Part shown: positions 19,214 through 21,073 of the stretch, one piece after another
How the letters are laid out: every line of letters starts with the position of its first letter
Position numbering within the stretch: position 1 is the first letter of the stretch
Assembly: GCA_902771095.1 (NCBI GenBank)
Contig: CACXVH010000005.1
Span: 8,085-72,084 of the forward strand
DNA: 64,000 bases
Direction: 5' to 3'
Source: an uncultured Pseudomonadota bacterium
Lineage (GTDB): Bacteria; Pseudomonadota; Alphaproteobacteria; Rs-D84
Notes under the pieces: generated by a model
What the model saw: only the letters and a program-made list of their open reading frames with translations
Told to the model about the DNA's origin: nothing
The model's database searches: none
Program-made: the position numbers and the translations under genes

Positions 19214-21073
19214 ATGTCAACAAGGTGTAATTTTTTTGTCAACACGCTGAAACCCGCAGAAACCTACACACACACACACACACACACACACACATGTAAT
19301 CTATTGCTAAGCATAAAACAAATCGGAACGATTTGTTTTGCAAATTTTTTTAGAGTTTTCGCGACCCCGATTTTCGCATTGATTTTTACATTTGGCGATA
19401 TAACATCTGCGATGGCGGTTTCTTGTGATTCGGTTGAAGACGGTTCAGTTGTTTATTATAATGGTAATTCCTACGAGGGGCCTTTCTCTGTAAGTTTTTC
19501 ATATGGCTCTGTAAACGGTATAGGTATATGTAGCATAGATGCTGGTTCTTCCTATGGGGAATTGGGCAGTCCTGATACCGTATCTGGTAGCGGTAGAAAC
19601 AGAAAAAATTGTTGGTGTCAAATAACCGATATTGATGGAACTAGTAATTCTTCACCAAATGCGGTATTTCTGGAAAGTTATGCTACTGTTGGTGTATGTC
19701 GGAATAGCTGTGCTGAAGAATGTGCGAATGTGTTAGCAGGGGACAGAGGTATAAGGGCTACACTTTATTCGGATCCTGATGCTAGTGATATGTGTGAGGG
19801 ACAGCCATGGGGGGGGCCTTGTAATACCGAGATATCGCTTGTGACTTTGGATCCAGATATTTGTGAAGAGTGGACGGAAAATGAAAGTGTCGATGGGCAA
19901 AATTGGACGGTTACTCTTATGCCAGGTGGTAATGAAACATTATCTGGGGTTGGGGGGTGTTTTGATGTTGCTGGTAATTATCGAGGTGAAGTATCACAAA
20001 CCCAACCATCGTCAGGAACTGGTTCAGACTGTTGGTGCGGTATAGGGATGTATAATGATGGAAATACAACATATTTGTCGGGAATGATATCATGGTTTTA
20101 TTTTGGGGACAATTGGGGGGATCCTTCGTCTTGTGAAGCAGATTGTCCCTGGGCGTGTGTAGAAATAATGCAACAAGGTTTATGTAATTTTGTTGAAAAC
20201 GCAGACGAATTAAGTATGTGTATTTATGAAGAACCGTCCGCATACAGTGTTTCGTATGATTGCGGTTATAATGGCAGTGGTTCCCCATCTGATCCCAGCA
20301 GCTATTCTTCTGGCGATACTGTTTATACACAATCAAGCAGTGCTTGTACACCGTCACCAGGTTATGAATTTTCTTATTGGGATTGCAACACAGGAACAAA
20401 TATAACCCCAGGTGATTCTTTCACGATATATGATAATACTACATGTACTGCGAATTATGATTATTACGGTGTTGGGGGTGGTGACTTTTATGTTCAATAT
20501 TCTTGTGGTATGGGCAGTGGTTCCCCATCTGATTCCAGCAGCTATTCTTCTGGTGATACTGTTTATACCCAATCAAGTAGCGATTGTACGCCACCAACTG
20601 GTCATCAGTTCGCTTATTGGGATTGTGACGGGATGATTGTAGATGCGGAACAAGATTTTACAATATATGATAATACTACTTGTGCCGCGCAATACACAGC
20701 AATAAAATACAATGTTTCTTATTCGTGTGGGGTAGCAACTGCTGGAAGTGCGCCATTGACAACAGTGGTGTCATATGGGGCATCGTTTGCGCCAGCAGCG
20801 AACACCTGTGGCATCCCAGGGGGATATAGCGGGTTTGTTGGTTGGGCAGTAAGTGGGACTAATGATGTAAAACCTGCTGCAACCGCGTTTAATTGGAATT
20901 ATACCGAAGGTAAAACTTTAACCGCACAGTTTACCCCAAATACAATATCCTTATCTTGGGACGGGGGTGGGGCACCACAATCTTGTTCGTATGGTGATAC
21001 ATTTAATGTCCCAACCCCACCATCCAGGACAGGTCATGTGTTTGTGGGATGGAAAGTGAATAGTAATCCATAA
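19214..21073 (+). CDS. secreted Cys-rich surface protein: 2 CWC modules plus 4 Listeria-Bacteroides (Flg_new) repeats; the (AC)14 tract lies in its 5' end
   Basis: ATG 19214 follows a purine-rich RBS. The signal sequence is ...FATPIFALIFTFGDITSAMA. CWC triplets lie at 19610-19618 and 20030-20038. Repeat endings are GYEFSYWD, GHQFAYWD, GFVGWAV and GHVFVGWKV. Confidence 0.7.
   Translation: MSTRCNFFVNTLKPAETYTHTHTHTHTCNLLLSIKQIGTICFANFFRVFATPIFALIFTFGDITSAMAVSCDSVEDGSVVYYNGNSYEGPFSVSFSYGSVNGIGICSIDAGSSYGELGSPDTVSGSGRNRKNCWCQITDIDGTSNSSPNAVFLESYATVGVCRNSCAEECANVLAGDRGIRATLYSDPDASDMCEGQPWGGPCNTEISLVTLDPDICEEWTENESVDGQNWTVTLMPGGNETLSGVGGCFDVAGNYRGEVSQTQPSSGTGSDCWCGIGMYNDGNTTYLSGMISWFYFGDNWGDPSSCEADCPWACVEIMQQGLCNFVENADELSMCIYEEPSAYSVSYDCGYNGSGSPSDPSSYSSGDTVYTQSSSACTPSPGYEFSYWDCNTGTNITPGDSFTIYDNTTCTANYDYYGVGGGDFYVQYSCGMGSGSPSDSSSYSSGDTVYTQSSSDCTPPTGHQFAYWDCDGMIVDAEQDFTIYDNTTCAAQYTAIKYNVSYSCGVATAGSAPLTTVVSYGASFAPAANTCGIPGGYSGFVGWAVSGTNDVKPAATAFNWNYTEGKTLTAQFTPNTISLSWDGGGAPQSCSYGDTFNVPTPPSRTGHVFVGWKVNSNP
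19266..19294 (+). repeat. (AC)14A dinucleotide microsatellite inside the 5' coding region
   Basis: Counted directly. It is flanked by gctgaaacccgcagaaacct (19246-19265) and gtaatct (19296-19302). Confidence 0.95.

What the first reader, a model, noticed from the sequence alone, without database searches (positions are those of the whole stretch)
19400..20230. Recurrent cysteine-rich CWC module (7 copies in 4 genes) that I cannot assign to a named domain
A module of about 110-130 aa recurs with the same ordered landmarks. First comes an aromatic-x-[VAI]-x-[FL] strand, then a Gly, then C-[ST]. Next comes G-x-x-C-[WY]-C. A W/F-[VF]-[YF]-type strand follows. The module closes with C-x3-C-x3-C-[AV].

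Copies, listed in that landmark order:
- A1: FSVSFSYGSVNGIGICS / NCWCQITDIDG / AVFLESY / CRNSCAEECANVL
- A2: WTVTLMPGG..GVGGCF / DCWCGIGMYNDG / SWFYFGD / CEADCPWACVEIM
- B (28150-28908): WAINFSYGMLKGMAICT / NCWCQAQTF / PIFVRTL / CLSACNRRCANLI
- C1-C3 (37790-41464): YCWCGLKTY..CDSDCAMRCVQVM; YCYCGFTGY..CLDNCAEECARAV; YCWCGITSY..CENVCALNCAEGI
- D (61006-62292): TCWCKVTAW..CTLQACGYICASV

C[WY]C codon triplets lie at 19610, 20030, 28726, 41168-41176(-), 40769-40777(-), 37961-37969(-) and 61927-61935(-).

The module always sits in signal-peptide proteins, at a terminus, and is fused to adhesin-type repeats. That makes a disulfide-stabilised ligand-binding head domain a reasonable guess.
Basis: seen in the sequence. 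Interest (0 to 1): 0.75.

Follow-up and report, generated by a model that had tools for sequence, protein, structure and literature searches.

The report
Unnamed cysteine-rich domain of gut bacteria
The repeated "CWC" module is a real protein domain of about 110-130 residues that no database names and that matches no solved structure; it is found only in small-genome gut Alphaproteobacteria (Candidatus Enterousia and relatives), sits on secreted repeat proteins, and at least some of those genes carry hypervariable (AC)n tracts that shift the reading frame.

Summary
**Observation: confirmed.** Exactly seven modules lie in four ORFs at the stated coordinates. Each scores significantly against a profile built without any window sequence (E 3e-14 to 2e-38). 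There is no eighth copy.

**Size and spread of the family.**
- 1,145 clusters at 50% identity match the profile.
- Six cysteines are 93-100% conserved: C ... G-x-Y-C-W-C ... C-x3-C-A-x2-C-A.
- Every HMM-confirmed genome hit is an animal-gut alphaproteobacterial MAG (Ca. Enterousia, order Rs-D84, genomes under 1 Mbp).

**Named-domain check.** Pfam, NCBIfam, PDB sequence profiles and Foldseek (PDB, BFVD) give no match.

**Predicted structure.** AlphaFold models three copies confidently as a β-sheet followed by a helix. The CxC lies on a strand and the CxxxCxxxC on the helix, so three disulfide staples are inferred. The loop before the CWC varies from 11 to 87 residues.

**Extra finding.** Genes A and B carry (AC)14 and (AC)13 tracts in the region coding for the leader peptide. 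The same loci in other samples are otherwise 100% identical and differ only in tract length, which breaks the reading frame. This looks like slipped-strand phase variation.

**Best reading (function inferred).** The module is a disulfide-locked recognition module on phase-variable surface proteins of a partner-dependent bacterium. A role in anchoring or assembly is the main rival.

**Verdict.** A new domain family within a known kind of system.

The parts
19214..21073 (+). Gene A (619 aa from ATG 19214; the mechanical ORF starts at TTG 19172). Layout: leader with (TH)n, signal peptide, modules A1 and A2, then Listeria-Bacteroides repeats.
   Evidence: The same protein is in public collections as P0006.
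19246..19294 (+). Conserved 20-nt leader GCTGAAACCCGCAGAAACCT followed by (AC)14 (14.5 copies by TRF). It lies inside the 5' coding region of gene A and is in frame here (ON).
   Evidence: A second sample has (AC)13 with the next 2,379 nt identical.
19400..19795 (+). CWC module A1
   Evidence: HMM envelope, independent E 1.3e-23. AlphaFold pLDDT about 90.
19814..20215 (+). CWC module A2
   Evidence: HMM envelope, independent E 1e-16. AlphaFold pLDDT about 80-90 with the same topology as A1.
20243..21064 (+). Listeria-Bacteroides (Flg_new / Flg_new_2) repeats of gene A
   Evidence: Pfam hits at aa 358-431 and 591-631.
28091..28137 (+). The same 20-nt leader followed by (AC)13 (13.5 copies by TRF), upstream of gene B's ATG. 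At 13 units it is out of frame with both upstream TTG starts. It would be in frame at 12 or 14 units.
28150..28908 (+). Gene B (252 aa): signal peptide, one Listeria-Bacteroides repeat and a C-terminal CWC module. It belongs to a conserved family of about 250 aa.
28489..28905 (+). CWC module B
   Evidence: Independent E 7.2e-22. AlphaFold pLDDT 85-95 over the module.
37790..41470 (-). Gene C (1226 aa): signal peptide, modules C1 and C2, Flg_new repeats, PARCEL/BspA-like repeats, more Flg_new repeats, and a C-terminal module C3.
   Evidence: Identical to P0003.
40994..41365 (-). CWC module C1
   Evidence: Independent E 5.3e-18.
40598..40969 (-). CWC module C2 (CYC variant)
   Evidence: Independent E 7.5e-22.
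37793..38173 (-). CWC module C3 (C-terminal, closest to the family consensus)
   Evidence: Independent E 2.1e-38.
61006..62292 (-). Gene D (probable GTG start at 62292 after an AAGGAAG ribosome-binding site). Layout: signal peptide, CWC module, one Flg_new repeat, then a Cys-rich C-terminal part.
61702..62205 (-). CWC module D (C-x4-C-x3-C variant)
   Evidence: Independent E 2.9e-14.

Best explanation
**What it is.** The CWC module is an autonomous extracellular domain of about 110-130 residues. It is specific to reduced-genome Alphaproteobacteria of animal guts (Candidatus Enterousia / order Rs-D84 and relatives).

**Predicted architecture.** A 4-5-stranded antiparallel sheet is followed by a long helix. 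Three cysteines sit on strands (Cys1, then C-W-C, whose two Cys point to the same face). Three sit on one face of the helix (C-x3-C-x3-C). I infer that these form three disulfides that staple the helix to the sheet. The result would be a rigid scaffold that displays a hypervariable loop between Cys1 and the CWC strand.

**Proposed role.**
- The module is exported through Sec.
- It sits mostly at the N- or C-terminal ends of proteins whose only other recognisable parts are Listeria-Bacteroides (InlB B-type) and PARCEL/BspA-like repeats.
- I propose it is the variable recognition or binding module of a large surface-protein repertoire. This partner-dependent bacterium would use the repertoire to contact other cells or host surfaces.
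- Expression of at least a subset of the genes, including genes A and B of this window, is switched by slipped-strand changes in an (AC)n tract inside the leader-peptide coding region.

**Shown here:** the domain family, the cysteine pattern, the taxonomic range, the absence of any known relative, the predicted topology, the loop variability, and tract-length polymorphism that changes the reading frame.

**Inferred, not shown:** the disulfide pairing, surface exposure, binding function and actual ON/OFF expression.
For: **The family is real and large.**
- A profile search of 1.84 billion representatives gives 1,145 proteins at E<=1e-3 and 399 at E<=1e-10.
- Consensus from 296 modules: Cys 93-100% conserved, G-x-Y-C-W-C, W-V-F, C-x3-C-A-x2-C-A, F-R-x3-F.
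- All 7 window copies are significant against an HMM that excludes the window.

**No named relative.**

**Fold.** AlphaFold models of B and of A1+A2 give the same strand-strand-strand-strand-helix layout at pLDDT 85-95. The CWC lies in a strand and the CxxxCxxxC in a helix.

**Export.** Signal peptides are seen in all four genes and, by a crude test, in 110 of 152 relatives.

**Variable loop.** Cys1-to-CWC spacing is 11-87 aa (median 25), with column entropy 3.3-4.0 bits.

**Fusion partners.** Flg_new is found in 32 of 56 relatives, with no enzyme or barrel domains among them. One giant protein ends in Endonuclease I.

**Taxonomy.** 29 HMM-confirmed genome loci all come from gut or rumen alphaproteobacterial MAGs. 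The window carries an alpha-type tmRNA.

**Lifestyle.** Enterousia / Rs-D84 have genomes under 1 Mbp, are fermentative, and are predicted to be obligate symbionts or parasites (PMC12306168).

**Phase variation.**
- The window has only two (AC)n tracts, and both sit at the 5' ends of CWC genes.
- Gene A is in frame at 14 units. Gene B is out of frame at 13.
- Gene A's locus in another sample is otherwise 100% identical and has 13 units instead of 14.
- A related locus seen in two samples (L123/L124) has 12 versus 10 units.
- 40 leader+tract instances span 4-22 units. 21 of the 29 downstream ORFs of at least 60 aa carry the CWC module.

**Positional swap.** Sister genes with the same leader, signal peptide and repeat carry a weakly ConA-like domain where the CWC module would be.
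Against: - No ligand, binding site or surface localisation has been shown.
- No anchoring or outer-membrane translocation device is recognisable in these proteins.
- 105 of 152 relatives have a module within 10 aa of the C-terminus. 27 of 110 carry modules at both ends. That pattern fits an anchoring or assembly role as well as a 'head'.
- Disulfide pairing could not be read out, because no model coordinates were available.
- Enterousia lacks respiratory chains (PMC12306168), so a classical DsbA/DsbB-quinone oxidation route is not assured and was not checked.
- Between two near-identical B alleles, most differences lie in the C-terminal helices, not in the loop.
- 14 of 36 tracts are in frame with an upstream start, which is about one third. 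That fraction is also what a non-coding tract would give. A TTG just after the tract could serve as an alternative start (P0150).
- The ConA-like hit is below Pfam's threshold (18.4 vs 27.6 bits).
Confidence: 0.5

Rival explanations
1. **Anchoring or assembly module.** The CWC domain attaches the protein to the bacterium's own envelope (LPS, peptidoglycan or an outer-membrane partner) or to other family members. The Listeria-Bacteroides and PARCEL repeats would then be the functional, displayed part. This would resemble SLH, LysM or choline-binding modules, which occur in tandem at either end of a protein.
For: - 105 of 152 relatives have a module ending within 10 aa of the C-terminus.
- 73 of 110 full-length proteins have a C-terminal copy, and 27 have copies at both ends, like gene C.
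- No other anchor (autotransporter barrel, lipobox or sorting signal) is detected.
- The tail motif F-R-x3-F-G is conserved.
Against: - The loop inside the module is hypervariable in length and sequence. That is unexpected for a domain that binds a conserved self component.
- Up to 7 copies occur in one protein, and 19 of 110 proteins have only internal copies.
- Sister genes replace the module with an unrelated C-terminal domain yet keep the same leader, signal peptide and repeat.
- There is no similarity to any known anchoring domain.
Confidence: 0.25
2. **Inert structural cap or spacer.** The module is a very stable disulfide-knotted unit. It protects the ends of long repeat proteins from gut proteases and has no specific ligand.
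For: - Terminal positions and the rigid cysteine framework.
- The gut habitat.
Against: - The family has diversified into more than 1,100 clusters at 50% identity, with one loop varying from 11 to 87 aa.
- The minimal proteins of about 250 aa consist of little else besides one repeat and this module. In them a mere cap would have nothing to protect.
Confidence: 0.1
3. **Metal- or cluster-binding domain.** The six conserved cysteines coordinate Zn or an Fe-S cluster instead of forming disulfides.
For: - Six invariant Cys with regular spacing.
- The organism is a strict anaerobe without respiratory chains (rubrerythrin; PMC12306168). Oxidative folding may therefore be limited.
Against: - The signal peptides are Sec-type without a twin-arginine motif. 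Cofactor-loaded proteins normally use Tat.
- The i/i+2 spacing on a strand facing i/i+4/i+8 on a helix is the geometry of disulfide staples. It is not the geometry of tetrahedral metal sites.
- No His or Asp co-ligands are conserved.
- There is no match to any metal-binding family.
Confidence: 0.05

Closest known systems
Cysteine-stabilised alpha/beta (CS-alpha-beta) motif of defensins and scorpion toxins
   Same: A C-x-C on a β-strand and a C-x3-C on an α-helix, predicted to face each other so that disulfides staple the helix onto the sheet. This is a resemblance in principle. It rests on my general knowledge of the motif.
   Different: - The order is reversed: CxC comes before CxxxC.
- A third helix cysteine and a third strand cysteine extend the staple.
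- The domain is 110-130 aa rather than 30-50 aa.
- It is embedded in large repeat proteins.
- There is no sequence or Foldseek similarity to any PDB entry.
- The disulfide connectivity is not verified.
Helicobacter pylori Hop outer-membrane adhesin genes (oipA, sabA, etc.) with CT dinucleotide repeats in the signal-peptide coding region; Neisseria opa CTCTT repeats
   Same: A dinucleotide tract lies in the 5' leader or signal-peptide coding region of surface-protein paralogues, and its length sets the reading frame. For oipA this is described in PMC10564699. Here, tract length differs between otherwise identical alleles.
   Different: - The repeat unit is AC, read as (Thr-His)n.
- The tract comes with a conserved 20-nt leader that is read in two different frames in different paralogues.
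- The proteins are unrelated to Hop or Opa β-barrels.
- ON/OFF expression has not been shown experimentally.
Listeria-Bacteroides repeat (Flg_new, PF09479; InlB B-repeat) surface proteins
   Same: These repeats are the constant fusion partner of the module. They mark the proteins as members of the broad class of bacterial repeat surface proteins.
   Different: The CWC module is not such a repeat (hhalign probability 0.04%). It has a different predicted topology and a six-cysteine framework.
Terminal, tandemly repeated cell-envelope binding modules (SLH, LysM, choline-binding)
   Same: The module occurs in 1-7 copies, mostly at one or both ends of secreted multi-domain proteins.
   Different: - No sequence or fold similarity.
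- Cysteine-rich.
- Has a hypervariable loop.
- Self-envelope binding has not been tested.

Membership tests
Any Pfam-A / NCBIfam domain family | Score at or above the curated threshold of a family model over the module | tested here: not met
   In the four window proteins only Flg_new, Flg_new_2 and PARCEL hit, and they hit outside the module. Among 29 diverse modules there are only isolated chance hits, each in a single member and all below threshold.
Listeria-Bacteroides repeat (Flg_new, PF09479) | Profile similarity to the repeat | tested here: not met
   hhalign of the CWC alignment A4 against the window's own Flg_new repeats (A9): probability 0.04%, E 0.89.
Any protein of known structure | Sequence-profile or fold match to a PDB chain | tested here: not met
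   hmmsearch against PDB: best E = 1 with the 7-sequence profile, and 0 hits at E<=10 with the 29-sequence profile. Foldseek with two confident models: best E 0.18-0.2, TM about 0.1-0.3. BFVD: best E 0.23.
CS-alpha-beta (defensin-like) motif | C-x-C on a β-strand and C-x3-C on an α-helix | tested here: met
   CWC lies within predicted strands 192-202 (B), 65-73 (A1) and 205-214 (A2). CxxxCxxxC lies within helices 225-238, 92-109 and 237-259.
CS-alpha-beta (defensin-like) motif | Helix CxxxC precedes strand CxC; compact 30-50 aa peptide | tested here: not met
   The order is reversed, and the domain is 110-130 aa inside proteins of 250-6,000 aa.
CS-alpha-beta (defensin-like) motif | The two disulfides link the CxxxC to the CxC | not testable with these tools
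   Model coordinates are not returned. This needs a structure or disulfide mapping.
Slipped-strand contingency locus (oipA/opa type) | Simple-sequence tract inside the 5' coding region, downstream of a ribosome-binding site and start codon | tested here: met
   Gene A, L061, L100 and L123 all show an SD-like site plus ATG, a conserved leader, (AC)n and then the signal-peptide h-region in one frame.
Slipped-strand contingency locus (oipA/opa type) | Tract length polymorphic between otherwise identical alleles, and the change shifts the frame | tested here: met
   Window (AC)14 vs L125 (AC)13, with 2,379 nt identical. L123 (AC)12 vs L124 (AC)10, with flanks identical. Range of 4-22 units in 40 instances.
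Slipped-strand contingency locus (oipA/opa type) | Protein expression switches ON/OFF with tract length | not testable with these tools
   Needs proteomics or reporter assays. An alternative TTG start after the tract cannot be excluded (P0150).
C-terminal sorting domains (e.g. T9SS CTD-type) | Single copy, obligatorily at the extreme C-terminus | tested here: not met
   Tandem copies (up to 7), N-terminal copies (45 of 110 proteins) and internal-only copies (19 of 110) occur.

The most novel reading that the evidence does not exclude
The CWC module is a previously unseen protein fold: a three-disulfide 'stapled' sheet-helix scaffold that presents one hypervariable loop. It would form the main partner- or host-recognition repertoire of an obligately partner-dependent gut alphaproteobacterial lineage. 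Individual receptors would be switched on and off by a portable leader cassette (20-nt leader plus (AC)n) that has spread among the paralogues.
Probability: 0.3. Interest if true: 0.8.

Novelty: new variant of a known kind. Interest (0 to 1): 0.62.

Why it matters
**The organism.** Candidatus Enterousia / Rs-D84 are uncultured gut bacteria with genomes under 1 Mbp. They are predicted to live off other cells, and how they contact partners is unknown (PMC12306168).

**What this family offers.**
- It takes up a sizeable share of this 64-kb window: four genes totalling about 7.6 kb.
- More than 1,100 diverged clusters exist in public data.
- It is absent from domain databases.
- It is the obvious candidate for the contact machinery of these bacteria.

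**What becomes testable.**
- The module could be added to domain databases as a new model.
- It is a small, confidently modelled target for structure determination and disulfide mapping.
- The variable loops could be used in binding screens.
- The hypervariable (AC)n tracts can be read directly from metagenomes, so ON/OFF states could be followed in animals.

**If it is only a stable cap or an anchor,** it is still a new lineage-specific domain, but of narrower interest.

Tried and rejected
**Searches that found no named relative**
- Pfam and NCBIfam on whole proteins and on 29 excised modules: no family. The TIL hit (E 0.056-0.59) and the MIC3 PDB hit (E = 1) are noise.
- Foldseek of two models against PDB and of one against BFVD: nothing below E 0.18.
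- The idea that the module is a degenerate Flg_new repeat: rejected by hhalign.
- Source-database names for 10 family members: none.
- Literature searches for Enterousia, Rs-D84, and Listeria-Bacteroides repeat plus cysteine-rich: no description of this domain.

**Searches limited by the tools**
- The word-indexed homologue search found only 2 proteins. The exhaustive profile search was needed.
  - I replaced it with a degenerate DNA pattern scan of GTDB genomes.
  - Most of the 120 loci it returned were chance matches from GC-rich genomes, so I filtered them with the HMM.
- The same pattern on IMG/VR gave 38 hits, none HMM-confirmed. There is no evidence for phage-borne copies, but sensitivity was limited.

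**Other dead ends**
- Synteny of gene D and its neighbours in the fetched loci: no close orthologue was present.
- Model coordinates are not exposed, so disulfide pairing and surface features could not be examined.
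Full report
**1. Observation**

- A: 19172/19214-21073 (+)
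- B: 28150-28908 (+)
- C: 37790-41470 (-)
- D: 61006-62292/62346 (-)

MAFFT alignments of the seven excised modules keep several features in register: a Gly and Cys1, the G-x-x-C-[WY]-C, and the C-x3-C-x3-C. Copy D is C-x4-C-x3-C.

As an independent test I built an HMM from 291 modules of other organisms, with every window-derived sequence removed. All seven copies score at independent E-values between 2.9e-14 and 2.1e-38. A six-frame scan of the whole window finds no further copy; the next best hit has E = 0.07.

**2. Size and definition of the family**

The word-indexed homologue search returned only two proteins. The exhaustive profile search of 1.84 billion cluster representatives returned 1,145 proteins at E<=1e-3, 399 at E<=1e-10 and 27 at E<=1e-30.

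From the best 152 proteins I extracted 296 near-full modules. Their consensus is:
- G-x-W-x-V-x-F-x-Y-G-x2-[VI]-x-G-x-[AS]-x-C-S
- G-x-Y-C-W-C-x2-T-x-Y
- W-V-[FY]
- C-x3-C-A-x2-C-A
- F-R-x3-[FY]

The six cysteines are conserved at 99, 100, 99, 93, 100 and 98%. Proteins carry one to seven copies.

A compact subfamily of about 250 aa, to which gene B belongs, aligns end to end in 26 representatives. It consists of a signal peptide, one Listeria-Bacteroides repeat and one module.

**3. Organism and distribution**

The window carries an alphaproteobacterial two-piece tmRNA, has about 38% G+C and encodes rubrerythrin.

A degenerate DNA pattern for CWC...CxxxCAxxCA was scanned over one genome per GTDB species. 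After HMM filtering, 29 of those loci carry the module. All 29 come from animal-gut or rumen alphaproteobacterial MAGs:
- several Candidatus Enterousia species
- RUG/RGIG rumen 'proteobacteria'
- UBA3635
- isolate 82_22-119
- one MAG labelled 'Rickettsiales'

The other loci are chance matches. Most are from GC-rich genomes, and none has convincing HMM support (the best, L104, reaches only E 5.8e-4).

Ca. Enterousia is placed in the order Rs-D84. Its genomes are under 1 Mbp, and it lacks the TCA cycle and respiration. It is predicted to be an obligate symbiont or parasite that takes metabolites from other cells. Its surface proteins have not been analysed (PMC12306168).

The same pattern scanned over IMG/VR gave 38 hits, none confirmed.

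**4. Is it a known domain?**

No. The evidence:
- Pfam-A and NCBIfam hit only Flg_new, Flg_new_2 and PARCEL repeats, all outside the module.
- None of 29 diverse modules reaches any family threshold.
- PDB sequence profiles give nothing.
- hhalign against the window's own Flg_new repeats gives 0.04% probability.
- None of the ten family members looked up carries a name in its source database.
- Literature searches found no description.

**5. Predicted structure**

AlphaFold2 was run on gene B with the 26-sequence alignment. It gives pLDDT 85-95 over residues about 111-240. The elements are strands 114-117, 124-127, 142-146, 150-159 (carrying Cys1), 192-202 (carrying CWC), 208-210 and 216-220. 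They are followed by helix 225-238 (CxxxCxxxC) and helix 240-250.

The A1+A2 tandem, which is the finding's own coordinates, was modelled with 74 sequences. It shows two separate domains of the same layout. A1 has pLDDT about 90 and A2 about 80-90. The linker between them is disordered.

On a strand, residues i and i+2 point to the same face. On a helix, residues i, i+4 and i+8 lie on one face. The simplest reading is therefore that three disulfides staple the helix to the sheet.

Foldseek finds no counterpart in PDB with either model (best E 0.18-0.2) or in BFVD.

**6. Variability and architecture**

The segment between Cys1 and the CWC strand is the variable part. It is 11-87 residues long (median 25), has an insertion hotspot, and has column entropies of 3.3-4.0 bits.

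Among 110 relatives with a signal-peptide-like N-terminus:
- 73 have a module at the extreme C-terminus
- 45 have one next to the signal peptide
- 27 have both, as in gene C
- 19 have only internal copies

Among 56 full-length relatives the only Pfam partners are Flg_new (32), Flg_new_2 (9) and one Ephrin_rec_like hit. Of three giant proteins scanned, one 4,750-aa protein ends in an Endonuclease I domain and another has a weak galactose-binding-like hit.

The four window genes are scattered singly among housekeeping genes, including ligA, a PBP, RNase E/G, obg, rubrerythrin and RNase J.

**7.

*In the window.* The window has only two (AC)n tracts. Both are at the 5' ends of CWC genes: 19266-19294 in gene A and 28111-28137 just upstream of gene B's ATG. 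Each follows the identical 20-nt leader GCTGAAACCCGCAGAAACCT, which occurs nowhere else in the window without mismatch.

In gene A, a good ribosome-binding site and ATG 19214 open a frame that reads the tract as (Thr-His)n. That frame continues into the hydrophobic signal-peptide core and the mature protein. It is open at 11, 14 or 17 units, and the window has 14. Gene B has 13 units and is out of frame with both upstream TTG starts. It would be open at 12 or 14 units.

*The same arrangement elsewhere.* Two genes of Enterousia MAG 82_22-119 show the same layout with 14 units in frame.

*Length differences between samples.*
- Gene A's locus in another sample (L125) is identical over the 2,379 nt after the tract but has 13 units.
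- A related locus seen in two samples is identical over about 420 nt but has 12 versus 10 units. The gene caller accordingly produced a 288-aa protein with the leader in one sample and a 258-aa protein starting downstream in the other.

*Across metagenomes.* A metagenome scan for leader plus tract gave 33 more instances. Over all 40 instances the tract ranges from 4 to 22 units. In 14 an upstream start is in frame, in 22 it is not, and 4 are truncated. Of the 29 downstream ORFs of at least 60 aa, 21 carry the CWC module.

*Comparison and caveats.* This is the signature of slipped-strand contingency loci, such as the CT repeats in the signal-peptide region of H. pylori oipA (PMC10564699). Two caveats apply:
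- About one third in frame is also what a non-coding tract would show.
- A TTG directly after the tract could act as an alternative start (P0150).

The ON/OFF effect on the protein is therefore inferred, not shown.

Curiously, the conserved leader DNA is read in two different frames in different paralogues: LKPAETY(TH)n versus SAETRRNL(HT)n. This suggests conservation at the DNA level, as a shared 5' cassette.

**8. Interpretation**

*Best supported (confidence about 0.5).* The module is an exported, disulfide-stapled scaffold that displays a hypervariable loop. It serves as the recognition module of a large and partly phase-variable repertoire of surface proteins in a partner-dependent gut bacterium.

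One hint supports this. Three sister genes (L166, L185, L188) keep the leader, signal peptide and repeat but carry another C-terminal domain of about 200 aa in place of the module. One of them gives a sub-threshold Laminin_G_3 / ConA-like hit (E 0.0025, 18.4 bits against a cut-off of 27.6).

*Main rival (about 0.25).* The module is an anchoring or assembly module. This is suggested by the C-terminal bias, by proteins with the module at both ends, and by the absence of any other recognisable anchor.

*Minor rivals.* An inert protease-resistant cap (about 0.1) and a metal-binding cysteine cluster (about 0.05). The second is disfavoured by the Sec signal peptides and by the strand/helix cysteine geometry.

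**9. Novelty and score**

The domain family is not in the libraries I could search, and it has no detectable structural relative. The system it belongs to is a familiar kind: phase-variable repeat surface proteins of host-associated bacteria. I rate it a new variant of a known kind, with interest 0.62.

Its 'ligand-binding head' guess remains plausible but unproven.

Noticed in passing
window 19246-19294 and 28091-28137; L061 187-234; L100 4330-4378(-); L123 and L124 (aligned); L125 9-55; L165-L197: (AC)n tracts of 4-22 units, preceded by a conserved 20-nt leader, lie in the 5' coding ends of CWC-family genes. Tract length differs between otherwise identical alleles and shifts the reading frame, so this is candidate slipped-strand phase variation. 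The leader DNA is read in two different frames in different paralogues.
   Followed up: yes
window 21690-21900 (inside ligA, ORFs 21114-21884 and 21897-23012): The NAD-dependent DNA ligase gene is split. After '...[13 protein letters not shown]' a stretch of about 200 nt with 56-66% G+C (the genome is about 38%) replaces the expected ligase sequence, and the ligase resumes at '...[11 protein letters not shown]'. This could be a chimeric assembly insert, a foreign insertion or a pseudogene. It is odd for an essential gene in a reduced genome.
   Followed up: partly
window 19037-19125 and 27920-27995; L061 1-120; L100 4440-4560(-); L123 ~1435-1480: G+C-rich, hairpin-like elements (for example ctccccctgtgggggag and ccaccccggcacttcgtaccacccctcc) sit next to the promoter-like sequence CCACTTTTCATAAAATTGAAAATATGATAGAAT upstream of tract-bearing CWC genes. 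They may be a repeated regulatory or REP-like element.
   Followed up: no
window 60452-61006 (-): A 184-aa ORF with a signal peptide and no Pfam hit overlaps gene D's stop codon by 1 nt, which suggests translational coupling. It contains a (Thr-Asn)n run encoded by a hexanucleotide repeat (TRF 60708-60727).
   Followed up: no
window 19809-19816: A G8 homopolymer lies in the disordered linker between modules A1 and A2 of gene A. It is identical (G8) in the second sample L125, so no variation has been seen so far.
   Followed up: partly
L166, L185, L188 (metagenome contigs): These sister genes have the same leader, (AC)n tract, signal peptide and Listeria-Bacteroides repeat. In place of the CWC module they carry a different C-terminal domain of about 200 aa. 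One gives a sub-threshold Laminin_G_3 / ConA-like hit (E 0.0025).
   Followed up: partly
P0013 (4750 aa, relative from the representative search): A giant family member with 5 CWC modules and Flg_new repeats ends in an Endonuclease I domain (E 6e-24). This looks like a tethered extracellular nuclease, which would suit a nucleotide-scavenging reduced-genome bacterium.
   Followed up: no
window 35792-36150 (-): A two-piece (permuted) alphaproteobacterial tmRNA gene (158.5 bits) identifies the class of the organism.
   Followed up: no
window 16991-18187 (+): A 398-aa ORF two genes upstream of gene A (the SIMPL/DUF541 gene lies between them) has no Pfam match.
   Followed up: no
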